Assembly (NCBI GenBank): GCA_964633445.1
Contig: CAZWFW010000001.1
Span: 6,339-70,338 of the forward strand
From: Candidatus Undinarchaeota archaeon
GTDB lineage: Archaea; Undinarchaeota; CAZWFW01
Length of the DNA stretch: 64,000 bases
Direction: 5' to 3'
A model generated the notes under the pieces. The model did not search any database. It was not told the DNA's origin and worked only from the letters and a program-made list of their open reading frames with translations. The stretch's first letter is position 1. Each line of letters begins with the position of its first letter. The position numbers were made by a program, and so were the translations under genes. This document shows positions 10,994-29,508 of the stretch, piece by piece.

Positions 10994-11066
10994 AGCCCCG
11001 ACCGGGATTTGAACCCGGGACCTCCGCTTTACCAGAGCGGCGCTCTACCAGCTGAGCTACCGGGGC
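10994..11066 (-). tRNA. tRNA-Thr (anticodon GGU)
   Basis: Hand-folded. Acceptor GCCCCGG/UCGGGGC. D stem GCUC/GAGC. Anticodon stem CCGCU/AGCGG with loop CUGGUAA. T stem CCGGG/CCCGG with loop UUCAAAU. Discriminator U. Confidence 0.85.
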
Positions 11067-20504: not shown

Positions 20505-23500
20505 TTGAGGGGATTCCAACATACAGGTATGAAAGCCATTTTCAAAGACTTTTGCCCAAACTGTAATGGGGAAATAGATGATGAGAGACTTTGGCATAAA
20601 GTTCCTTGCGAAAAGTGTTTACCCTTATCTTTGGACAAAGTTAAAAAACTAAGCGAAAATCTCAGCAATTTAGAATTTAAAGAGCTAATTTACGAGTTAC
20701 TAAATGAAAGAGGAACTCTAAAGAATTATTCAAAAATATATGAGCTGGAGAGAAGGGTTGAGGAAGTTAACAAGATTTTTGAGGCATGTATAGGCAGCGG
20801 TCTTTGGTCTGCCCAGAAAGTTTGGGTAAAGAGAATTTTAAACAAAGTAAGTTTTGCTTTGATAAGTCCTACAGGAATGGGAAAAACAACGTTTGGTATG
20901 GTAATGTCCCTTTATTTGGCAAAGCATGGTAAGAAATGTTACATAATTTTGCCAACGACGATCCTTGTTAAACAAATAAACGATAGACTTGAAGAGTTTA
21001 TGGAAAAAAGCGGGGTTAGAGTTAGAGTTTTAGCATATCATACCGAATTAAAAAAAGGCGAGAAAGAGGAGGTAAAGGAGAAGATAACTAAAGGAGAATT
21101 CGATATATTAGTAACATCAAGTCAATTCCTAGCAAGAAACTTTGAGATAATAAAAAAGCAGAGATTCTATTTCATATTTGTGGATGATGTTGACGCTTTT
21201 CTTAAAGCATCCAAAAACATTGACAGGGTTTTGTTTCTCATGGGATTTTCTGAAGATGCCATCAAAGCCGCTATGGAGATTATTAAAATTAAAAAACAGT
21301 TAGTTGTCAGGAGGGATAAAAATCTCGAAGATAAGCTAAAAACTCTTGAAAGAAGTTTGGAGGAGTTTAAGGATGTCGAAAGCATTCTTGTGGTTTCCTC
21401 AGCAACTGGTAAGGTTAAGGGCGATAAGGTAAAAGTTTTTAGAGAATTACTCAACTTTGAAGTTGGCACTGCAAGGGAAGGGGCTAGAAATATAGAGCAT
21501 ATTTGGCTTGAAGGCAAGCTAGAGGATATCTGTGAAATAATTAGGAAAATGGGTGGTGGTTGCTTAATATTTGTTCCTATAGATGCTGGTACAGAGCTTG
21601 CCAAGGAAATTGAGCAGTTTTTAATTTCGAAAGGAATTAACGCTAAAGCTGTTCATGCAAAAACTAAAAAGAGTGTTATTGATCGCTTTGCTAAAGGGGA
21701 AATTGATGCGTTGATAGGAGTAGCGAGTTATTATGGTGTTATTGTGAGAGGATTGGATATTCCCGAGAGGGTTAGGTATGCAATATTTTATGGAATTCCG
21801 AAATTCAAATTCTCCTTAGAGATAAAGGAGAGGAATCCGATTAGGGTTCTGTCCCTGCTATCTACCTTAAGGGAATTTTCAAGTAACAAAGAAAGAGTTG
21901 ATAGAATGATTATAAAATTAAGAAGGATACTGTCAAAGCTGTCACCAGAGGATTTGAGGAAAGTTGAGGAAAGCCAACAGTTAAATGATTTTTTGGTGTA
22001 TGTTAAGCAAGAATTTGAAAAAGCTGCTGAATTTTTGCAGAATATGCTCAAAAATAAGGAGGTTCTAGATAAAATAGGAAAAAGCCCGTATATTTCTCTA
22101 GTTAAAGAAAGTGAAGGATTATTCATAAAAATACCTGATGTAAGAACATACATACAGGCTACAGGTAGAACTTCAAGAATGTATGCTGGTGGTATTACCA
22201 AAGGAGCTTCCTTTGTCTTTATAGATGATGAAAAGGTGTTTAATGGTTTGAAAAGGCAGCTGATATTACTTGATGAGGAGTTCAAAAGTATTGGTGAAGT
22301 TGATCTTAAGAAGATTAAGGAGGAGATAGAAAGGGATAGGAAATTGCTTACTGAAATCAGGGAGGGTAAAGTTAAAGTTGAGGCAAAAGAACCCGTTAAA
22401 TCTTGTTTGTTTATTGTTGAATCCCCAAACAAAGCAAAAACAATTGCAAATTTCTTTGGTAGACCATCTAAGCGTAGAATTGGTGAATTGGTTGCTTATG
22501 AAACACATACTGGAGATTTCGCTTTAACAATAATTGCAACTGGTGGACATATTTTAGATTTAGCTCATGATGGTATATATGGGGTTAAGAGGGTTAATGG
22601 TAAATTTATTCCGATCTACACGACAATTAAAAAATGTAGGAAATGTAATGAGCAATTTGTTGAGGGTGATGTATGCCCGAATAAGAAATGCAATTCAAAG
22701 GACATATTTGATAGCAGGTATACAATTGAAGCATTAAGGCATCTTGCAGATGAAATAGGATATGTTATAGTCGGTACAGATGCTGATTCGGAAGGTGAGA
22801 AAATTGCTTGGGATGTAGCAACATTAATCGCACCTTTTGCAAAAGAAATAAAGAGAGCTGAGTTTCACGAGGTTACTAGGAGAGCTATTTTGAACGCTTT
22901 GGAAAATCCAAGAGAAATTGACGAATTTAGGGTTAACGCTCAAATTGTAAGGCGTATTGAGGATAGGTGGATTGGCTTCTACTTAAGCCAAGATTTATGG
23001 AGAATATTTGAAAAGGGTTGGCTTTCGGCTGGTAGGGTGCAAACGCCAGTACTTGGCTGGGTAATTGAGTTTGAGAAGCTTGCAAGAAAGAAGAAGTCAG
23101 TAGTTAGGATAGTACTTGAGAATGATGCTGTTGTGGATTTTGAGTTTAAAAACATTAGACAGGCTAAGAAATTTGCTGAAGATGTTGAGGAAGCGTATGT
23201 GGAAATACTTGAGGAGAAAGAGGAGAAAATAAAGCCGAATCCCCCATATACAACTGATACTTTACTAAGGGACGCTTCTCGCTTCTTCAGACTTGATGCT
23301 CCAAAGGTTATGCAAATTGCGCAGGATCTTTTCGAGGCTGGGTTATGCTTGACACCAGACACCTACGTAATTATGCATGATGGAAGTATTAAGAAGATAG
23401 GCGATATCTCCGAAAATGAAAATGTTTTGGGCTTGAACAATCTACATGAGATGCCTGCAAAGGTACTAAGGTTTTGGAAGATACCGTATAAAGGTGTGAT

Positions 23501-25598
23501 CAAAGAAATAGTGCTTGAGAATAATTATAGCATAAAGGCTACTCCAGATCACGGAATTTTTGTTTACAGAGATGGTAAATTTGGTTGGGTTTCAGCTAAG
23601 AATGTAAGGGTTGGAGATTATGTGGCAGTAGCTTTCAATGTCAACATTAAAAGAGAAAGCTTAGGTTTACTCGAATTATTGGCGAAGCTTGGAATATTGG
23701 ATATATGCGTCGAATTCAAGAAAGATTCAAAACTATTTGAAAAGCTTAAAAAGAGAGTTGATGGAAGTAAGGCAAGTGCAAAATATAAGTATATGGGAAG
23801 CAGGGCAATTCCTTTAAAGTATTTAGATAAATGGGGCATTGATCTAAAAGCCGTTGAAAGGGAAGCAACCACCATTTCCAAGCAGAGATCCTCAGCTGAA
23901 AAAATTCCAATTTTTAAATTAAATAGCGATTTTTGGTACTTCGTTGGACTGGTTATGGGTGGTGGAACAATCGAAGAAGAGAAAATTGTAATATCTCAAA
24001 AAGATGCTAAGGAAATCAAAAGGATACTTGAAAATGTGTTTCCATTTGCCAATGTGAGGATTGCTGGCACGCAAGTTTACCTTGCTAATTCGATTATAGC
24101 AGAGATTTTAAGAAAACTGGATGTAAGGGGCAAGTTAAATGGTTTAGTGTTTTCACTGCCAGAGGATTGCATAAATGCTATGATAGCTGGATATATTGAT
24201 GCTGATGATAGCATTTCGTTGAAGTTTGACAAGAAATGTTGTAAAAACAATCTTAGAATTGTTATAAGTAATAAAGAAAGGGAAAAAATTGAGAAAATTG
24301 GATATTACCTATGCTTGATTGGTATTTTGAACACATTGCATAAGGATGAAAAAACAGGTATTTGGAAACTAATTTTAGGCAATAAATCGCTTAAGACGTT
24401 TAAAAAGAAGATTGGTAAACATCTTAGAACTAGGAGAAAGATTTTTGAGAAAGCATACAAAGCATGCGCAAGTGAGCATCTAGAGTCAGATTTTGTTCCG
24501 TTTAGTAAATTTTTCAAGTTACTTAAATTTGGGAAAGGTGTTGAGGGTAGAATTCTCAAAGAACTTTGCACTGATGCTCGAAATTTGGATGACTGTGCAT
24601 GTATACAAAGAGAAAAGCTTAAGAAGGTAGTTAAATTGGCTGAAGACACTGATGTTAAGACATTTTTGCTTGAACTGTTAAATGCCAATGTTTCATGGGT
24701 TAGAGTGAAGGAGGTTAGGAATAGGCAATATAACGGATATGTTTACGATATAACAACTGCAACATCAAACTTCTTTGCTAATGCGATACTTAACCACAAC
24801 TGCACCTATCACCGTACAGATTCAACAAGAGTATCAAAGGAAGGTTTGAACGTTGCTAGGGAATTGGTTGAGGAAAGTTTTGGCAAGGAATATTTCAAAG
24901 CAAGAATTTGGTATATGGAAGGTGCCCATGAGTGCATAAGGCCCACAAAACCACTTACGAGAGAGTATCTCGAGGAGTTGATTAATACTGGCGCGCTAAC
25001 ATTGCCTAGACAATTAACCTTTTGGCATCTTGTAGTTTATGAGCTCATTGTGAATAGATTTATGGCAAGTCAGATGAGAGAGGCTAGAGTTGTTAAACAG
25101 AAAGTAAAAGTAAGTGTTAAAGATGTTGAAAAAGAAGTTGAAGGATACGCTAAGGTAGCTGATGAAAGTTTCCTAAAGATAACTAAGGTACCAATGATAC
25201 CCGAGTTTAGGAATGGTAGGGTAAAAGTTAAAGATGTAAAGGTAATGAGGGTACCATCATCCAAGTTGCTTACGCAAGCGGATCTCGTTGCTTTAATGAA
25301 GGAGAGGGGTATAGGTAGGCCATCAACCTATGCTACAATAATTGCTAAATTGTTCAAAAGGGGTTACCTTTACGAGCTTGGTAAGGAGAAGAGGATTAAT
25401 AAAATTGTGGCAAGGAAAATTGGCAAGGAAGTTTTTCAGTATTTGATTAGCAATTATCCTCATTTAATTAGCGAGGAGCGTACAAGGAAACTTGAGGAGG
25501 ATATGGATATGATAGAGGAGGGTAAGAAAGATTATCAGGAAGTTCTAAATGAAATTTACAAGGAAATCTTTGAGCCAGAAATACTCAAGCAATATTAA
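20505..25598 (+). CDS. rgy: reverse gyrase, interrupted in-frame by an intein
   Basis: N-terminal zinc finger CPNCNGE..CEKC. Helicase-like domain with Walker A SPTGMGKTT and a DExx-type box FIFVDDVD. C-terminal topoisomerase IA domain including the active-site motif LTREYLEELI. The predicted extein is 1212 aa, typical for reverse gyrase. The track start is a TTG at 20505; an in-frame ATG lies at 20529. Confidence 0.9.
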   Translation: MRGFQHTGMKAIFKDFCPNCNGEIDDERLWHKVPCEKCLPLSLDKVKKLSENLSNLEFKELIYELLNERGTLKNYSKIYELERRVEEVNKIFEACIGSGLWSAQKVWVKRILNKVSFALISPTGMGKTTFGMVMSLYLAKHGKKCYIILPTTILVKQINDRLEEFMEKSGVRVRVLAYHTELKKGEKEEVKEKITKGEFDILVTSSQFLARNFEIIKKQRFYFIFVDDVDAFLKASKNIDRVLFLMGFSEDAIKAAMEIIKIKKQLVVRRDKNLEDKLKTLERSLEEFKDVESILVVSSATGKVKGDKVKVFRELLNFEVGTAREGARNIEHIWLEGKLEDICEIIRKMGGGCLIFVPIDAGTELAKEIEQFLISKGINAKAVHAKTKKSVIDRFAKGEIDALIGVASYYGVIVRGLDIPERVRYAIFYGIPKFKFSLEIKERNPIRVLSLLSTLREFSSNKERVDRMIIKLRRILSKLSPEDLRKVEESQQLNDFLVYVKQEFEKAAEFLQNMLKNKEVLDKIGKSPYISLVKESEGLFIKIPDVRTYIQATGRTSRMYAGGITKGASFVFIDDEKVFNGLKRQLILLDEEFKSIGEVDLKKIKEEIERDRKLLTEIREGKVKVEAKEPVKSCLFIVESPNKAKTIANFFGRPSKRRIGELVAYETHTGDFALTIIATGGHILDLAHDGIYGVKRVNGKFIPIYTTIKKCRKCNEQFVEGDVCPNKKCNSKDIFDSRYTIEALRHLADEIGYVIVGTDADSEGEKIAWDVATLIAPFAKEIKRAEFHEVTRRAILNALENPREIDEFRVNAQIVRRIEDRWIGFYLSQDLWRIFEKGWLSAGRVQTPVLGWVIEFEKLARKKKSVVRIVLENDAVVDFEFKNIRQAKKFAEDVEEAYVEILEEKEEKIKPNPPYTTDTLLRDASRFFRLDAPKVMQIAQDLFEAGLCLTPDTYVIMHDGSIKKIGDISENENVLGLNNLHEMPAKVLRFWKIPYKGVIKEIVLENNYSIKATPDHGIFVYRDGKFGWVSAKNVRVGDYVAVAFNVNIKRESLGLLELLAKLGILDICVEFKKDSKLFEKLKKRVDGSKASAKYKYMGSRAIPLKYLDKWGIDLKAVEREATTISKQRSSAEKIPIFKLNSDFWYFVGLVMGGGTIEEEKIVISQKDAKEIKRILENVFPFANVRIAGTQVYLANSIIAEILRKLDVRGKLNGLVFSLPEDCINAMIAGYIDADDSISLKFDKKCCKNNLRIVISNKEREKIEKIGYYLCLIGILNTLHKDEKTGIWKLILGNKSLKTFKKKIGKHLRTRRKIFEKAYKACASEHLESDFVPFSKFFKLLKFGKGVEGRILKELCTDARNLDDCACIQREKLKKVVKLAEDTDVKTFLLELLNANVSWVRVKEVRNRQYNGYVYDITTATSNFFANAILNHNCTYHRTDSTRVSKEGLNVARELVEESFGKEYFKARIWYMEGAHECIRPTKPLTREYLEELINTGALTLPRQLTFWHLVVYELIVNRFMASQMREARVVKQKVKVSVKDVEKEVEGYAKVADESFLKITKVPMIPEFRNGRVKVKDVKVMRVPSSKLLTQADLVALMKERGIGRPSTYATIIAKLFKRGYLYELGKEKRINKIVARKIGKEVFQYLISNYPHLISEERTRKLEEDMDMIEEGKKDYQEVLNEIYKEIFEPEILKQY
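23346..24800 (+). mobile_element. intein (485 aa) with LAGLIDADG homing-endonuclease domain inside the reverse gyrase topoisomerase domain
   Basis: It starts with Cys (FEAGL|CLTPD). Block B TxxH (ATPDHGIF). LAGLIDADG-type motifs DFWYFVGLVMGGG and INAMIAGYIDADDS. It ends ..ILNHN followed by +1 Cys (CTYHRTD). All coordinates are in frame with the host ORF. Confidence 0.8.
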
Positions 25599-25636
25599 GT
25601 TTATGACATAATCACTAGAACGGATTTGAAGCTTAT

Positions 25637-25696
25637 CGTTAACATCGTTAAGAATGTTAAGTTTATTATCGTTAAGTAAAATTTAAGTAGTGTTAA
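25637..25696 (+). repeat. direct repeat copy 1 (about 60 bp, GTTAAG-submotif rich) upstream of the COG2865 gene
   Basis: CGTTAACATCGTTAAGAATGTTAAGTTTATTATCGTTAAGTAAAATTTAAGTAGTGTTAAG is about 90% identical to the copy at 27003-27062. Confidence 0.75.
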
Positions 25697-25712
25697 GTTA
25701 ATTTGATTTTTT

Positions 25713-27002
25713 ATGAGGCTAGAGGAATTCTTTAAATTGATTGAAAATGGAGAAAGTGAGAGAATAGAGTTTAAGGAGAAAGTAACGAAAAATATTGCTG
25801 AGGAGATAGTTGCATTTGCAAACTCTTTGGGAGGTTACTTGTTAATAGGAGTGAAAGACGATAAAACACTTGTAGGTCTTAATACTAAAGAATTGCAAGA
25901 GGCCAAAAGATTCATATCTAATTGCCTAGCGAATATTGCTCCACCCATAACAGTAAAATTTCATGAAGTGAGAATAAATAGAAAGAGTTTTCTAATAGTG
26001 GAAGTTCCAAAATCAAAATATATTTGTTCCATTGGTGGTATAGCCTACATTAGAGTTGGCACATCCAAAAGACCTTTATCAATTCAAGAAACACTAACTT
26101 TAGGCGCAGAAATTCTACTTTTTCCCTTCGATAAAACACCAACAAAAATTCCTGCAAAATTAATCTGGGAAGATGCCTTGAAGAGGTACGAAAGAGGTTT
26201 GAAGGAGAGAAATATTAAGGTAAGCGATATCTACTATCATTTAAAAAAATTGGATGTAATTATATCAAAGAAAGGTAGAGATTTCTTGACATTTGGAGGT
26301 GCCTTAATTTTCCTTGAAAACCCCCAAGAATATTTTCCACAGAGTTACTTAAGGGTTTGCTTTGAAGAAGGTTACACAAGAATCTCAGGCCCTCTATGGA
26401 AAATTATTGACAAGTTTGTGGAAGCTTTCTTTAAGCAAGAGATCCTTAGATATGTGCTAAAAGGATTTAGGAGAATAGATTATGAAATGTTGCCAGCAAG
26501 GATTTTAAGAGAAGGTGTAACTAACGCTTTGATTCATAGAAATTATACAATATCCTCTGAAACTTTTGTTTCCTTAGAAAGCAACGCTATCAAAATAAAG
26601 AATCCTGGAGCCTTTCCTCCTGGAGTTACCCCTGAGGATCCTCATCCTGTGGCGAGAAATCCACTAATATATGAATTGATGTTTAATATGGGTTACATAG
26701 AGAAGCAAGGTGCTGGGGTAAAAATGATATTTGAAGAAGCGAGAAAAAATCCTTATTTGGATGTTGAATATAAGATTTCGCCAAACTTCACAACATTGCT
26801 ATTAAAATTTAAGGTTGAGCTAGATGAAGTCGATAAGAAAATACTAGACGCCTTAATTGGTCCAAAATCTTCAAGTGAGATTGCTAGAATTGTAGGATTA
26901 AGCAAACCAGCTGTAATTAATAGGCTAAACAGACTAATTGATGCCAAACTTGTTAAAAGGATTGGAAGTGGGGCAAAAACCAAATATAGGTTAACAAGTT
27001 AA
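25713..27002 (+). CDS. COG2865-type protein: N-terminal AlbA_2 (Schlafen-like divergent AAA) domain + HATPase_c-like domain + C-terminal winged HTH
   Basis: N-terminus ESERIEFKEKV..AEEIVAFANSLGGYLLIGVKDD is the characteristic AlbA_2 box. The C-terminus KKILDALIGPKSSSEIARIVGLSKPAVINRLNRLIDAKLVKR is a wHTH. The gene is flanked on both sides by the 60-bp direct repeat. Confidence 0.7.
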   Translation: MRLEEFFKLIENGESERIEFKEKVTKNIAEEIVAFANSLGGYLLIGVKDDKTLVGLNTKELQEAKRFISNCLANIAPPITVKFHEVRINRKSFLIVEVPKSKYICSIGGIAYIRVGTSKRPLSIQETLTLGAEILLFPFDKTPTKIPAKLIWEDALKRYERGLKERNIKVSDIYYHLKKLDVIISKKGRDFLTFGGALIFLENPQEYFPQSYLRVCFEEGYTRISGPLWKIIDKFVEAFFKQEILRYVLKGFRRIDYEMLPARILREGVTNALIHRNYTISSETFVSLESNAIKIKNPGAFPPGVTPEDPHPVARNPLIYELMFNMGYIEKQGAGVKMIFEEARKNPYLDVEYKISPNFTTLLLKFKVELDEVDKKILDALIGPKSSSEIARIVGLSKPAVINRLNRLIDAKLVKRIGSGAKTKYRLTS

Positions 27003-27062
27003 CGTTAACATCGTTAAGAGTGTTAAATTTTCTAGCGTTAAGTAAAATTTGAGTAGTGTTAA
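27003..27062 (+). repeat. direct repeat copy 2 (about 60 bp) immediately after the COG2865 stop codon
   Basis: CGTTAACATCGTTAAGAGTGTTAAATTTTCTAGCGTTAAGTAAAATTTGAGTAGTGTTAA begins 1 nt after the TAA stop at 27000-27002. Confidence 0.75.
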
Positions 27063-27103
27063 AAATAGTAAGCTTAAATGGAAGAATAGTTTTTATTTAA
27101 ATA

Positions 27104-27931
27104 TTGTTTTTTAAGTTAATGAATGTAGAAATTTCGCTAGAAAAAGATTTAAGCCTAATAAGAAAAAATAAGCCGCTAATCCTCCACTTAGTTAATTATG
27201 TTGCTATGAACGATTGCGCAAATGTTACGCTTGCTTTGCATGCTTCTCCAATAATGACAAGCTATGAGGACGAAATTAAGGAAATTGTTAGCAAATCTGA
27301 TTCTCTTTATATAAACATTGGCACACCAACAAGAAGAATAATTGATGTTATTAAACAAGCATGCAAAGTCGCAAATGAAAATAAAAAGCCAATAATTCTT
27401 GACCCTGTTGGAGTTGGGGCTACTAAGGCAAGAACTAGTTTTGTTCATTATTTACTCAAGAATTATGAAATAGATGTTTTGAAAGGCAACTATGGCGAAA
27501 TTTGCTCAGTTGCTGGCTTAAATAATGCTATGAAGGGTGTCGACTCCTTAGAAATTAATGAAAAAATTGTTTTAAGAAGTTGCAAAGAAATTGCTAGGGA
27601 ATATAGTATTTGTGTTGTAGCTACTGGTGAAAAGGATTTTGTTGTTGATAAAAATGAAAATGCTTATGTAGTGTTAAATGGTCATGAGATGCTTAGCATG
27701 CTCACAGGTAGCGGATGCATGCTTGGTAGCGTAATTGCCTGCTTTTTAACAACACAAAAGCCATTAAATGCTTGCTTAGAGGGATTAGTAGTTTTTAATG
27801 TCAGCGCTGAAATTGCTGCGAAGCATGCTAATGGTTTGGGTAGTTTTAAAGTAAGATTGCTCGATGAAATATCAAATGTTGATACTGAGCAAATTAAGAA
27901 ACTTGCAAGGATTAAAGTTTGCCAGTTTTAA
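27104..27931 (+). CDS. thiM: hydroxyethylthiazole kinase
   Basis: 275 aa. PLILHLVNYVAMNDCANVTLALHASPIM, VDVLKGN and ATGEKDFVVD motifs match ThiM. Confidence 0.8.
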   Translation: MFFKLMNVEISLEKDLSLIRKNKPLILHLVNYVAMNDCANVTLALHASPIMTSYEDEIKEIVSKSDSLYINIGTPTRRIIDVIKQACKVANENKKPIILDPVGVGATKARTSFVHYLLKNYEIDVLKGNYGEICSVAGLNNAMKGVDSLEINEKIVLRSCKEIAREYSICVVATGEKDFVVDKNENAYVVLNGHEMLSMLTGSGCMLGSVIACFLTTQKPLNACLEGLVVFNVSAEIAAKHANGLGSFKVRLLDEISNVDTEQIKKLARIKVCQF

Positions 27932-29508
27932 GGATTTAGCAAGAATAGAATAATGTTGGCTAGTAAGGATGTGAAAATGGCAGTTAATATTAAAAATAGA
28001 CAAAGCATGCCAACAGCAACTAATGTTTTAGGAATTACTTGCTTTATATTGATCTTTTTCAAATATCTTAGCTTCAAATATCTCAGCAATATTGCTATTG
28101 TTGGGATAATGCATATAAGGAGGAGAAACTCTAAGGGGTGATATTCCAGTAAATCTAGTAGTAATGATAGAATAAAGCCAAAAATGTAAGGAATTGCTAC
28201 AAAAAATGCTACTTTTTTAATACCTCTGTTGAACTTCAAGAAGAATAGAAGTAATAAAACTGCTATAGTAACGCTTATAGGCACCAAATTATCTGAAATT
28301 GCGATTAAAATCGAAGCAGAATTTGAAGGGAGCAGATACAAATCATCCTTTATTTTATTAGAGTCTATTTCAAATTTCGTGTAAACGTTATCTCCTATTC
28401 TTCCATATTTCCCTTTGTAATTTCCTTTATAGGCCCCTTTCGCGTACACAGCAATTTTTATATCATGGTTAGCCATTAAGAGCAAAGGATAATAAGGCTT
28501 GTTATCCAGGGGTATAAACTCTATTTCTATATTAGCTCTTCTTTGACATTTAAAAAATAGGTCACGAGCAAGACCCCAACGCGCTTCACGGACTTTTTCA
28601 CATGTTATAGGGATTTTTGTGTAGTCTTCTATGTAACCAACAATAAAGTATGTTGTATCACTTTTAAGCTTTTCAAGCATCTCTTTTTCTTCTTGAGTCA
28701 AATTTCCAAATTTTGACAAATATGCAATGATGTTCTCGCTTGATGGTATTAGTTCAAGAGCTATGCCGTATTTTTTAATTGTTAGCAGCTTCTTAACTTG
28801 CACCTCTTCAGAAACACCAGCGGCACCTATATAAAAAGTAAATAAATCTAGCCAAGAAGTCAAGGGGCGAATTACTGTAGCTTCAGTAACATCGGAGGCA
28901 ACTTTTCTTAGGGATTCTTCTATAGGAATGAACTCTAGATTAATGTTGGTTTCCGTTATGTCGAGTTTAATTTGCTTAGGATATTTAGTTTCAATAGGGA
29001 TAACCCAAAAAATGTTTGTAAAGTTTTTCTTATCAATTTTTTCATAGAAGTTCTCTGGTGAAATGTCCCAGCAGTAGATGCAATTATAACAATAGACACA
29101 ATTTCTGGAAATCTTCCCATACTTCTCTATACAGTGCTCCAGTACAATCCAATGAAATTTTGGTTCTGGACAAGTTTCCTTATATAATATATGAGAACTA
29201 ATAGAAAGGTTTAAAGGAAAAATCTTCACGTTGCCAACGTATGTTTTTATAATCTCTTCTCTTCCAAAATCATTTATTATAGTCATTTTTTCTTTTTCAC
29301 CATCATACTCAACAATTCCAACCTGATCGTAGCCGTACAACGACTTTAGCAAAGCTGTTCTTTCTTCAAAAAAGTAAACAGTTCCATCGCAAAACACACT
29401 AGGTAAAGTTAAAAGAAATGCTATAGCAATAAGGAGAAACCTCATTAAGTTTTTATTTTGATGTCCCATTAATAAACTTAAGGAAAATCTTTTATTTGGA
29501 ATTCTCAA
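27928..29508 (-). CDS. Cys-rich membrane protein (signal peptide, large extracytoplasmic domain, about 4 C-terminal TM helices), hypothetical
   Basis: 526 aa with a cysteine cluster CPEPKFHWIVLEHCIEKYGKISRNCVYCYNCIYCWD and a C-terminal hydrophobic block. Its start overlaps the upstream nuclease-like gene by 17 nt. The real start may be at the internal MRFLLIAIAF. Confidence 0.5.
   Translation of the reverse strand: MRIPNKRFSLSLLMGHQNKNLMRFLLIAIAFLLTLPSVFCDGTVYFFEERTALLKSLYGYDQVGIVEYDGEKEKMTIINDFGREEIIKTYVGNVKIFPLNLSISSHILYKETCPEPKFHWIVLEHCIEKYGKISRNCVYCYNCIYCWDISPENFYEKIDKKNFTNIFWVIPIETKYPKQIKLDITETNINLEFIPIEESLRKVASDVTEATVIRPLTSWLDLFTFYIGAAGVSEEVQVKKLLTIKKYGIALELIPSSENIIAYLSKFGNLTQEEKEMLEKLKSDTTYFIVGYIEDYTKIPITCEKVREARWGLARDLFFKCQRRANIEIEFIPLDNKPYYPLLLMANHDIKIAVYAKGAYKGNYKGKYGRIGDNVYTKFEIDSNKIKDDLYLLPSNSASILIAISDNLVPISVTIAVLLLLFFLKFNRGIKKVAFFVAIPYIFGFILSLLLDLLEYHPLEFLLLICIIPTIAILLRYLKLRYLKKINIKQVIPKTLVAVGMLCLFLILTAIFTSLLANIILFLLNP

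What the first reader, a model, noticed from the sequence alone, without database searches (positions are those of the whole stretch)
25637..27062. COG2865-type AlbA_2/HATPase/wHTH gene precisely bracketed by two 60-bp direct repeats made of GTTAAG submotifs
A 60-bp sequence (CGTTAACATCGTTAAGAATGTTAAGTTTATTATCGTTAAGTAAAATTTAAGTAGTGTTAAG) sits 16 nt upstream of the start codon. A copy about 90% identical begins 1 nt after the stop codon. Each copy contains 5-6 iterations of (C/T)GTTAAG. The unit of one repeat plus the gene (about 1.37 kb) lies between reverse gyrase and thiM. Without it those genes would be separated by about 140 nt, so the unit looks like an inserted cassette with long flanking direct repeats. 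The repeats look like att-like sites or a duplicated operator. The encoded protein ends in a winged HTH, so the iterated GTTAAG boxes are plausible self-binding sites. Schlafen-like AlbA_2 ATPases are increasingly linked to defence, which adds interest.
Basis: seen in the sequence. Interest (0 to 1): 0.75.

Follow-up and report, generated by a model that had tools for sequence, protein, structure and literature searches.

The report
Repeat-bracketed archaeal Schlafen-like gene cassette
An archaeal gene for a Schlafen-like nuclease/ATPase with a DNA-binding tail lies between two copies of its own promoter-plus-binding-site array; nine of eleven relatives examined, in eight different genomic neighbourhoods, share this design, and in one relative the unit is cleanly missing from a sister strain, so it behaves as a small self-contained movable gene cassette that I could not find described.

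Summary
A 64-nt direct repeat (25633-25696 and 26999-27062, 89% identical) brackets a 429-aa AlbA_2/Schlafen + GHKL-like + winged-helix gene. It has only two copies in the window, and none of 43 other genes has such a bracket.

It is also not a one-off. Nine of eleven distinct relatives (42-60% identity), in eight other neighbourhoods, carry the same bracket.
- The second copy always starts at or inside the stop codon.
- Box spacing is conserved: 9-9-15-21 nt, with the last two boxes 21-22 nt apart around a TATA-like stretch.
- Box sequence changes with the protein: CGTTAAG, ATCGTTAAR, GGTAAC, TATCGTAAAT.
- For one relative, a 99%-identical sister contig lacks the 1361-nt unit and keeps one solo repeat.
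- Two cassettes that are 94% identical sit in unrelated contexts, and their homology ends exactly at the repeats.

Best reading: an autoregulated one-gene cassette whose control region is terminally duplicated, gained and lost by recombination across the repeats. Still inferred: protein binding, looping, a circular form and the first-insertion mechanism. No empty site was found for this particular locus. No integrase, attC-like hairpin or known defence system fits, and I found no published description.

The parts
25633..25696 (+). Repeat copy R1: the cassette's control region. Five GTTAA-core boxes (starts 25638, 25647, 25656, 25671, 25692) spaced 9-9-15-21 nt.
25677..25690 (+). A/T-rich TATA-like stretch (TAAAATTTAAGTAG) between the last two boxes, which lie 21 nt apart. 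Putative core promoter. A second candidate, TTTATTAT, lies at 25662-25669.
   Evidence: Read from the sequence. The same position is A/T-rich in all nine bracketed relatives. Its promoter role is inferred.
25713..27002 (+). Cassette gene, 429 aa: Schlafen/AlbA_2 + GHKL-like HATPase_c_4 + winged HTH.
25752..26078 (+). Schlafen/AlbA_2 domain (aa 14-122). The catalytic-type motif G13-E14-x4-E19-F-K21 is conserved.
   Evidence: the CbCash E17/D22/K24 triad in PMC13462974
26568..26801 (+). HATPase_c_4 (GHKL/Bergerat-type) domain, aa 286-363. E267, N271 and G333xG335 are invariant in the family alignment.
26802..26996 (+). C-terminal winged helix-turn-helix (aa 364-428), with recognition-helix region LSKPAVINRLNRL. 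Presumed reader of the boxes.
26990..27062 (+). Repeat copy R2 (26999-27062, 89% identical to R1, same 9-9-15-21 spacing) together with two extra GTTAAC boxes inside the last codons (26990, 26998). It overlaps the stop codon.
25690..25698 (.). 9-nt segment GTGTTAAGT (box 5) shared by the two contig ends in one metagenome sample. Likely the target-site duplication of an insertion present in only part of the population, lying between the promoter and the ATG.
   Evidence: inference

Best explanation
The 1366-bp unit (one repeat plus the gene) is a self-contained one-gene cassette.

The repeat is the cassette's own control region. It is an array of five short boxes in a fixed grammar, and the last two boxes lie two helical turns apart on either side of a TATA-like stretch just upstream of the ATG. 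I infer that the boxes are binding sites for the winged helix at the C-terminus of the encoded protein. The protein would thereby repress its own gene, which encodes a probably active Schlafen-type nuclease joined to a GHKL-type ATP-binding domain.

The second copy abuts or overlaps the stop codon. It is a terminal redundancy of the same control region, so the integrated cassette is slightly more than one unit length of a circularly permuted unit (gene plus one 51-104 nt control region). The second copy gives the protein an operator array at the other end of its gene, so a protein-bridged loop that closes off the gene is possible.

Because the two copies are in direct orientation, recombination between them removes the unit and leaves a solo repeat. 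A resident array can also take up or exchange a unit.

Shown: the anatomy, its recurrence in eight other gene neighbourhoods, co-variation of box and protein, an empty site with a solo repeat, and near-identical cassettes in different contexts with homology ending at the repeats.

Inferred: protein binding, repression, looping, a circular intermediate, and whether host recombination or the cassette protein does the cutting.
For: (1) The bracket recurs. Nine of eleven distinct family members (42-60% aa identity) have upstream/downstream alignment scores of 56-142. The shuffle maximum is 38 or less, with 0 of 500 shuffles reaching the observed score. Repeat lengths and identities are:
- L012: 63 nt, 100%
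- L145: 76 nt, 97%
- L013: 39 nt, 95%
- L011: 35 nt, 91%
- window: 64 nt, 89%
- L014: 69 nt, 86%
- L152: 79 nt, 84%
- L147: 35 + 41 nt, 89% and 80%

(2) The neighbourhoods differ:
- window: rgy / thiM
- L011: AlaRS / PTH2
- L014: L44e
- L013: DEAD helicase
- L012: HepT-MNT / M23 peptidase
- L145: AAA_14 / PMT_2
- L147: Mre11-Rad50 / PheRS
- L152: thermosome-glycosylase

(3) The box grammar is conserved. Spacing is 9-9-15-21 in five loci and 9-9-14-21 in L012. The last interval is 21-22 nt in all nine bracketed loci, while the box sequence changes: CGTTAAG, ATCGTTAAR, GGTAAC, TATCGTAAAT.

(4) P. abyssi and T. barophilus orthologues lack R2 but keep CGTTAAG/CTTAACG boxes in their promoters.

(5) Box clusters occur only at R1 and R2 in about 150 kb of fetched loci.

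(6) An empty site exists. L054 matches the left flank plus R1 of L013 at 99.4% and R2 plus the right flank at 98.75% over 2082 nt. It has one repeat and no gene.

(7) L107 and L011 are 94% identical over 1389 nt, running exactly from box 1 of R1 to box 3 of R2, with unrelated flanks.

(8) R2 starts from 28 nt inside the gene to a few nt after the stop codon in every bracketed locus. In L147 and L152 the duplicated segment includes the last 27-28 coding nt. That points to duplication by descent rather than convergent placement of operators.

(9) The two copies exchange sequence. A SNP is swapped between R1 and R2 in L013 versus L051, and R2 has 1 box in L051 versus 3 in L013.

(10) Protein: pLDDT 88, with Schlafen N-domain and GHKL folds and an intact E-x4-E-x-K motif.
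Against: - No empty site or solo repeat was found for the rgy/thiM locus itself.
- There are no binding, expression or looping data.
- Two Thermococcales orthologues work without R2, so R2 is not essential to the protein's function.
- No circle-junction sequence was seen.
- How a unit enters a site that has no resident array is unexplained.
- Deletion between 35-79 nt direct repeats could be passive.
- The sample is eleven members, chosen by similarity rank rather than at random.
- L054 could in principle be an assembly collapse. This is unlikely, because the identical stretch is only about 31 nt.
- GC content gives no sign of foreign origin.
Confidence: 0.55

Rival explanations
1. Autonomous one-gene mobile element. 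The encoded protein itself binds the two arrays, brings them together, and uses its Schlafen-type metal-dependent nuclease and GHKL ATPase to excise and insert a circle of about 1.37 kb. Alternatively, it opens the unit by nicks staggered across the array, which would create the terminal redundancy on repair.
For: - There is no other recombinase in or near the cassettes.
- Element ends coincide with the box arrays.
- The redundancy always spans boxes 1-3 and ends after box 3 or box 5, as if it were defined by the boxes.
- R1 and R2 are 97-100% identical in L145 and L012, as expected after a recent copy through a single-repeat intermediate.
- The nuclease motif is intact.
- 94%-identical copies in two contexts come from the same metagenome, Ga0190309.
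Against: - Characterised Schlafen domains cleave RNA, mostly tRNA (PMC13462974).
- No circle junction was found, and no consistent target-site duplication (only AAGCTTA in the window).
- High copy number within one genome has not been demonstrated.
- Thermococcales orthologues are single, unbracketed genes.
- Distant bacterial relatives are ordinary operon members.
Confidence: 0.2
2. A purely regulatory bracket. The protein is an ordinary autoregulated transcription factor or sensor with operator arrays at both ends of its gene, giving a repression loop or insulation of a toxic gene. Its appearance in different contexts reflects ordinary gene transfer, and the solo repeat is an accidental deletion.
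For: - The box grammar around the TATA-like stretch is conserved.
- Boxes are kept in Thermococcales promoters.
- In context C, R2 has been kept through about 20% nucleotide divergence: the L107 and L014 flanks are 81.6% identical and the genes 79.2%. A decaying relic would not be expected to survive that.
- By my own knowledge, lambda CI is a precedent for a repressor gene lying between two triple-operator arrays that loop.
Against: - It does not explain why R2 always starts at or inside the stop codon.
- It does not explain why up to 28 coding nt are part of the duplication.
- It does not explain why the homology between cassettes in unrelated contexts ends exactly at the arrays.
- It does not explain why non-box spacer bases are also shared between R1 and R2 of one locus but not between loci.
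Confidence: 0.15
3. An integrated copy of a minimal circular replicon (plasmid- or satellite-like). The box array would be an iteron origin and the protein its initiator. It would be integrated as slightly more than unit length after rolling-circle or concatemer formation.
For: - Short direct iterated boxes sit next to an A/T-rich stretch.
- The structure is more than one unit length, with a compact 51-104 nt non-coding part.
- Homologs P0010 and P0019 are listed on Logan contigs of 1369 and 1364 nt, about one unit length. I did not inspect these contigs.
Against: - The protein has no known replication-initiator domain.
- Breakpoints are never inside the gene, which random linearisation of concatemers would produce.
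- There were no family hits of this subfamily in IMG/VR. Only 23-27% relatives were found there.
- Unit-length contigs are also what an assembler yields for a repeat-bounded loop.
Confidence: 0.05
4. attL/attR of an integrase-mediated insertion, or an integron-type cassette with attC sites.
For: - Direct repeats flank an inserted-looking gene.
- The repeat starts right after the stop codon, as attC does.
- The box GTTAAGT fits the GTTRRRY core consensus (my own knowledge).
Against: - There is no tyrosine or serine recombinase within 10 kb.
- There is no tRNA target.
- The repeats belong to the element and co-vary with its protein.
- All boxes are direct, with no inverse core. Single-strand folding is no better than shuffles, z from -1.5 to +0.9.
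- The cassette carries its own promoter-like region.
Confidence: 0.03

Closest known systems
COG2865 / DIP2311-like proteins (Pfam SLFN_AlbA_2 + HATPase_c_4 + winged HTH; PDB 3lmm)
   Same: Same three-domain architecture. The best sequence and fold match is 3lmm (profile E 1e-26; Foldseek E 1.5e-20). The family is large: 9939 representative clusters at E up to 1e-3.
   Different: The family is functionally uncharacterised and often misnamed RecG-like helicase. The bracketing repeats were absent from the 12 distant viral-contig relatives tested (23-27% identity); the two plasmid relatives fetched sit in operons, for example with a type I restriction gene, and were not tested for repeats. I found no description of the bracket in the literature I could search.
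Prokaryotic and mammalian Schlafen nucleases (CbCash, SLFN11/13/14)
   Same: The N-terminal domain aligns with Schlafen nuclease domains. It keeps the acidic-acidic-lysine motif (E14, E19, K21) that matches the CbCash catalytic triad E17/D22/K24. The Cash paper notes many Schlafen homologs with ATPase plus DNA-binding domains.
   Different: There is no CARF/Csx15-type sensor, no CRISPR, BREX or restriction-modification neighbours in the window, and no PADLOC system match. Nuclease activity and substrate are untested.
Lambda CI with the OL and OR triple-operator arrays (my own knowledge, not tested here)
   Same: A repressor gene lies between two arrays of several operator sites 1-2.4 kb apart. 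One array overlaps its own promoter, and long-range looping sharpens autoregulation.
   Different: Here the arrays are in direct orientation, are sequence copies of each other including non-box bases, and the second one abuts the stop codon. Looping is only inferred.
LTR elements and their solo-LTR footprints
   Same: Direct terminal repeats that carry the promoter. Identity between the two copies varies from 84 to 100%, like an insertion clock. Recombination between them leaves a solo repeat.
   Different: The repeats are only 35-79 nt, there is no reverse transcriptase or integrase, the element holds a single gene, and the host is an archaeon.
Integron gene cassettes (attC)
   Same: A unit of one gene plus one recombination site of about 60 nt that starts right after the stop codon. 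Presence/absence behaviour is cassette-like.
   Different: There is no integrase or attI, no hairpin-forming inverted repeat, the cassette has its own promoter, and it encodes its own DNA-binding protein.
Iteron or centromere arrays bound cooperatively by small DNA-binding proteins (ParR-parC, plasmid Rep iterons; my own knowledge)
   Same: Several short direct boxes at roughly helical spacing flank a core promoter and are bound by the product of the adjacent gene.
   Different: There is no partner partition ATPase and no Rep domain, and the location is chromosomal. The array is duplicated at the gene's 3' end.

Membership tests
COG2865-type AlbA_2/HATPase_c_4/wHTH proteins | N-terminal SLFN_AlbA_2 domain | tested here: met
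   PF04326, aa 14-122, E 2.1e-25, 90 bits against a cut-off of 25.3
COG2865-type AlbA_2/HATPase_c_4/wHTH proteins | Central HATPase_c_4 (GHKL-like) domain | tested here: met
   PF13749, aa 286-363, 53 bits against a cut-off of 26. Foldseek hits histidine-kinase CA and PDK domains. E267, N271 and GxG are invariant.
COG2865-type AlbA_2/HATPase_c_4/wHTH proteins | C-terminal winged helix-turn-helix | tested here: met
   HTH_AsnC-type, HTH_20, HTH_24 and HTH_5 all pass their cut-offs, aa 364-428. ArsR and Lrp structures are hit.
Schlafen nucleases | Conserved catalytic acidic-acidic-lysine motif | tested here: met
   G13, E14, E19, F20 and K21 are at least 90% conserved in 20 family members. They align with 'ES..EFK' of SLFN14 and rSlfn13. 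The CbCash triad is E17/D22/K24 (PMC13462974).
Schlafen nucleases | tRNA/RNA endonuclease activity | not testable with these tools
   Needs biochemistry.
Known anti-phage defence systems (PADLOC models) | Full-length match to a system protein, with the partner genes nearby | tested here: not met
   Only partial hits: pAgo-associated fusion models over aa 174-347, and Csa3/CasR winged helices. The neighbours are rgy, thiM, Hjc and TIP49.
Integron gene cassette | attC site with imperfect inverted repeats that folds as single-stranded DNA | tested here: not met
   z-scores from -1.46 to +0.85 on both strands of R1, R2 and the L012 R2. All boxes are in direct orientation.
Integron gene cassette | IntI integrase and attI next to the cassette(s) | tested here: not met
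   No recombinase domain in the genes within 10 kb.
Integrase-generated attL/attR (integrated plasmid or provirus) | Integrase gene inside the element, with repeats derived from the target (often a tRNA gene) | tested here: not met
   The element holds a single gene. The nearest tRNAs are at 10994 and 47797. The repeats co-vary with the cassette protein across contexts.
Insertion sequence / transposon | Transposase, terminal inverted repeats and a target-site duplication | tested here: not met
   No transposase domain. No inverted repeat at the ends. AAGCTTA occurs at both outer edges in the window only, and nothing comparable was seen in L011, L012, L145, L147 or L152.
Direct-terminal-repeat elements that leave solo repeats (LTR-like behaviour) | Direct terminal repeats, and solo-repeat empty sites in related genomes | tested here: met
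   The bracket is present in 9 of 11 members. The solo repeat is in L054 against the occupied L013/L051. This was shown for a relative, not for the window locus.
Direct-terminal-repeat elements that leave solo repeats (LTR-like behaviour) | Reverse transcriptase / integrase | tested here: not met
   Pfam shows only the Schlafen, GHKL and wHTH domains.
Self-operator (autoregulated repressor with looping arrays) | Specific binding of the product to the boxes, and loop formation | not testable with these tools
   Indirect support only: conserved grammar and box/protein co-variation.

The most novel reading that the evidence does not exclude
These cassettes are a previously unrecognised class of archaeal mobile element. 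It would be a single gene whose product (Schlafen-type nuclease + GHKL ATPase + winged helix) recognises the box arrays at both ends of its own gene, brings them together, and catalyses excision and insertion of a unit of about 1.35 kb. The terminal redundancy would be generated by cuts staggered across the array. The box array would serve at once as promoter, operator and recombination site.
Probability: 0.17. Interest if true: 0.95.

Novelty: new variant of a known kind. Interest (0 to 1): 0.8.

Why it matters
COG2865-type Schlafen/ATPase/HTH proteins are very common in prokaryotes (thousands of clusters) and have no established function, although Schlafen nucleases have just been tied to immunity.

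This locus, with its relatives, predicts the DNA motif that each protein reads and gives a conserved site grammar to test. It also shows that, in one archaeal subfamily, gene and sites travel together as a unit of about 1.36 kb that can be cleanly absent from a sister strain.

Three questions become directly testable:
- how a potentially toxic nuclease is kept silent;
- whether a gene can carry its own insulating or looping operator pair;
- whether single-gene cassettes can move in archaea without a classical recombinase.

If the protein itself does the moving, it would be a new transposition chemistry and a compact programmable DNA-binding/recombination module from hyperthermophiles.

Tried and rejected
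- Synteny test for an empty rgy/thiM site. The genome-contig scan with the reverse gyrase C-terminus found only relatives at 45-48% identity with a different downstream gene order. Exact-protein look-ups of thiM and rgy found only occupied alleles. The test was uninformative.
- Metagenome scan with CGTTAANNNCGTTAAGNNNGTTAA. Only 8 loci were relevant, so solo repeats are surely under-sampled. The same pattern in viral contigs gave 12 unrelated hits.
- IMG/VR protein scan. It found only bacterial-type relatives at 23-27% identity, none with a bracket.
- Plasmid tblastn. All hits were below 30% identity. The two fetched lie among other genes (a type I restriction gene and DUF87 at H3; a transposase and ParA at H1) and were not tested for repeats.
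- Rfam found nothing in the region. GC and skew profiles show no foreign island.
- attC-like hairpin: rejected.
- Target-site duplication: AAGCTTA at 25629-25635 and 27070-27076 is not paralleled at other loci, so I treat it as probable chance.
- A regulon of other box arrays: none in the 64-kb window or in the other fetched loci. The rest of the genome was not available.
- Literature searches for COG2865, AlbA_2, HATPase_c_4 and Schlafen in archaea found no description of the repeats.
Full report
**1.

The window contains a 64-nt direct repeat at 25633-25696 (R1) and 26999-27062 (R2). The copies are 89% identical and 1366 nt apart. R1 ends 16 nt before the ATG of an ORF at 25713-27002. The first box of R2 starts at the base after the TAA stop, and with its 4-nt extension the repeat overlaps the stop codon.

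Long sub-strings of the repeat occur only at these two places in 64 kb, even with 3 mismatches, against 0 expected. A triple GTTAA box pattern with 9-nt period occurs twice against 0.03 expected.

As a control I aligned 150 nt upstream against the last 40 nt plus 150 nt downstream for 44 genes of the window. This gene scores 93, the next best scores 24, and the median is 18.

The ORF encodes 429 aa with SLFN_AlbA_2, HATPase_c_4 and a C-terminal winged HTH. The upstream gene is a reverse gyrase carrying an intein, and the downstream gene is hydroxyethylthiazole kinase. GC content is not unusual. No Rfam family or tRNA lies in the region, and no recombinase lies within 10 kb.

**2. The bracket belongs to the gene, not to the site**

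The closest homologs found are only 54-60% identical. I fetched the DNA around four of them. Each sits in a different neighbourhood: AlaRS/PTH2, HepT-MNT/M23 peptidase, DEAD helicase, and ribosomal L44e. Each is bracketed by a direct repeat of the same design, and the second copy begins within 2 nt of the stop codon or overlaps it.

More distant homologs (42-46%), in three further contexts, show the same arrangement:

| Locus | Repeat length | Identity R1 vs R2 |
|---|---|---|
| L145 | 76 nt | 97% |
| L147 | 35 + 41 nt | 89% and 80% |
| L152 | 79 nt | 84% |

In nine of eleven distinct members the upstream/downstream score is 56-142. The shuffle maximum is 38 or less, and 0 of 500 shuffles reach the observed score.

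The two exceptions are the cultured Thermococcales, Pyrococcus abyssi GE5 and Thermococcus barophilus CH5. They lack a downstream copy but still carry CGTTAAG/CTTAACG boxes in the 100 nt before the ATG.

Twelve distant relatives on viral contigs (23-27% identity) show no bracket. The two plasmid relatives fetched lie among other genes and were not tested for repeats.

**3. A conserved site grammar with a changing word**

GTTAA box starts are spaced 9-9-15-21 nt in the window, L011, L107, L013 and L014. They are spaced 9-9-14-21 in L012 and 12-9-13-11-21 in L145.

In L147 the box is GGTAAC (spacing 13-12-22). In L152 it is TATCGTAAAT (spacing 10-24-21).

In all nine bracketed loci the last two boxes are 21-22 nt apart and enclose an A/T-rich, TATA-like stretch. 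The last box lies 12-19 nt before the ATG (37 nt in L145).

The recognition-helix region of the winged helix is most divergent in L147, the member with the most divergent box. Box clusters occur nowhere else in about 150 kb of fetched sequence.

I read this as a promoter whose TATA element is flanked by two sites on the same face of the helix, plus an upstream triple site, all read by the cassette's own winged helix. The binding is inferred, not shown.

**4. The duplication is by descent**

- R2 keeps the same spacings as far as it extends.
- Non-box spacer bases are shared between R1 and R2 of one locus but differ between loci.
- In L147 and L152 the duplicated segment starts 27-28 nt inside the coding region. 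In L147 it runs to a copy of the ATG.
- In the window, two further GTTAAC boxes lie in the last codons.

The integrated form is therefore slightly more than one unit length of a circular permutation. The unit is the gene plus one 51-104 nt control region and measures 1341-1380 nt in total.

**5. Evidence that the unit comes and goes**

A metagenome pattern scan was mostly noise but returned L054.
- L054 1367-1522 matches L013 1-156 (left flank plus R1) at 99.4%.
- L054 1484-3565 matches L013 1479-3560 (R2 plus right flank) at 98.75%.
- L054 has one repeat and no family gene.
- This is a precise empty site with a solo repeat, between a 120-aa ORF and a DEAD/ResIII helicase.

A second occupied allele, L051, has one box instead of three in R2. 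A prefix SNP is swapped between R1 and R2 relative to L013. This shows exchange between the two copies.

L107 (L44e context) and L011 (AlaRS context) are 94% identical over 1389 nt. The match runs exactly from box 1 of R1 to box 3 of R2, and the flanks are unrelated. By contrast, L107 and L014 share the L44e context and have diverged equally in flank (81.6%) and gene (79.2%). The cassette therefore persists vertically at one site and has also recently reached a new one. L107 and a copy in the AlaRS context (L132) come from the same metagenome.

**6. The protein**

- The AlphaFold model is confident (pLDDT 88).
- Foldseek and sequence searches hit the uncharacterised DIP2311 (PDB 3lmm), Schlafen N-terminal domains and GHKL ATP-binding domains.
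- The motif G13-E14-x4-E19-F-K21 is nearly invariant in the family. It aligns with the Schlafen active-site segment.
- In the bacterial Schlafen nuclease CbCash the catalytic triad is E17/D22/K24, and the enzyme cleaves tRNA (PMC13462974).
- PADLOC, NCBIfam and PHROGs give only domain-level matches or misnamed ones ('DNA helicase').
- The broad family is very large, with 9939 representative clusters. The close subfamily is small, with 119 clusters at E up to 1e-30.

**7. Interpretation**

My best reading (0.55) is an autoregulated one-gene cassette whose control region is terminally duplicated.
- R1 acts as promoter and operator.
- R2 is a second operator array that may allow a loop enclosing a potentially toxic gene.
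- The direct orientation makes the unit excisable, leaving solo repeats, and exchangeable.

Rivals:
- the protein itself is the recombinase (0.2);
- the bracket is purely regulatory and mobility is incidental (0.15);
- an integrated minimal replicon with iterons (0.05);
- integrase or integron att sites (0.03), rejected on the absence of an integrase, the absence of a hairpin and the element-specific nature of the repeats.

**8. Limits**

- No empty site was found for the window's own locus.
- The survey covers eleven members.
- The metagenome scan was truncated.
- Binding, repression, looping, nuclease activity and any circular form are untested.
- The source organism is an unnamed, presumably hyperthermophilic archaeon from vent-type metagenomes.

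Noticed in passing
window 25690-25698 (L002, L003 and L004 start at 25690; L006 ends at 25698): In one sample (SRR7051322 = JGI 3300022170 = ERZ27247980), three different assemblers break the contig at the same base. The left and right contigs share exactly 9 nt, GTGTTAAGT (box 5, 15-23 nt before the ATG). The longest exact match between R1 and R2 is 17 nt, so the repeat cannot cause the break. Ends that do not depend on k-mer size and share a 9-nt overlap are what a polymorphic insertion with a 9-bp target-site duplication would give. That suggests an IS-like element disrupting the cassette promoter in part of the population. A Tn5 library hot spot or a physical staggered break are alternatives.
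   Followed up: partly
window 20505-25598 (+); intein about 23367-24800: The reverse gyrase is 1697 aa because its topoisomerase domain is interrupted by an intein with a LAGLIDADG homing-endonuclease domain (Intein_splicing aa 955-1432, LAGLIDADG_3 aa 1221-1304).
   Followed up: no
window 25629-25635 and 27070-27076: The 7-mer AAGCTTA lies 1 nt before box 1 of R1 and again 7 nt after the end of R2. It could be a target-site duplication of the original insertion. No comparable duplication was seen at five other family loci, so it may be chance.
   Followed up: partly
L051 (Ga0164318_10177269) compared with L013: The downstream repeat of L051 has one CGTTAAG box where L013 has three. The AATC/ATTC prefix SNP is swapped between the upstream and downstream copies. 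This indicates slippage and/or exchange between the two repeats of one cassette.
   Followed up: partly
L044 700-1848 (Ga0180302_10037230): Relative to L107, about 1.1 kb carrying a 323-aa predicted membrane-protein ORF sits between the cassette's downstream repeat and the shared right flank. This is a second variable insertion next to the repeat.
   Followed up: no
L012 5074-5863; L011 8703-9101; L145 225-2864; L168 4497-6028; L150 1713-2876: Several family members lie next to toxin-antitoxin or abortive-infection-type genes: HepT/MNT pairs, AbiEi/AbiEii, AAA_14-DUF4143 ATPases and a resolvase. Others, including the window, lie among housekeeping genes.
   Followed up: no
window, minus strand, ending at about 16702 (L001 1-990): A very large (1545 aa) alpha-2-macroglobulin-like protein (MG2, A2M, TED_complement domains) is encoded in this archaeal contig, followed by two ORFs with no Pfam match.
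   Followed up: no
proteins P0010 and P0019: These two homologs (43% and 41% identity) are recorded on Logan contigs of 1369 and 1364 nt, which is about one cassette unit length. The contigs could be unit-length circles or repeat-bounded assembly loops.
   Followed up: no
window 27931-29469 (-): The 513-aa ORF downstream of thiM is conserved in all contigs of this locus but has no Pfam family.
   Followed up: no
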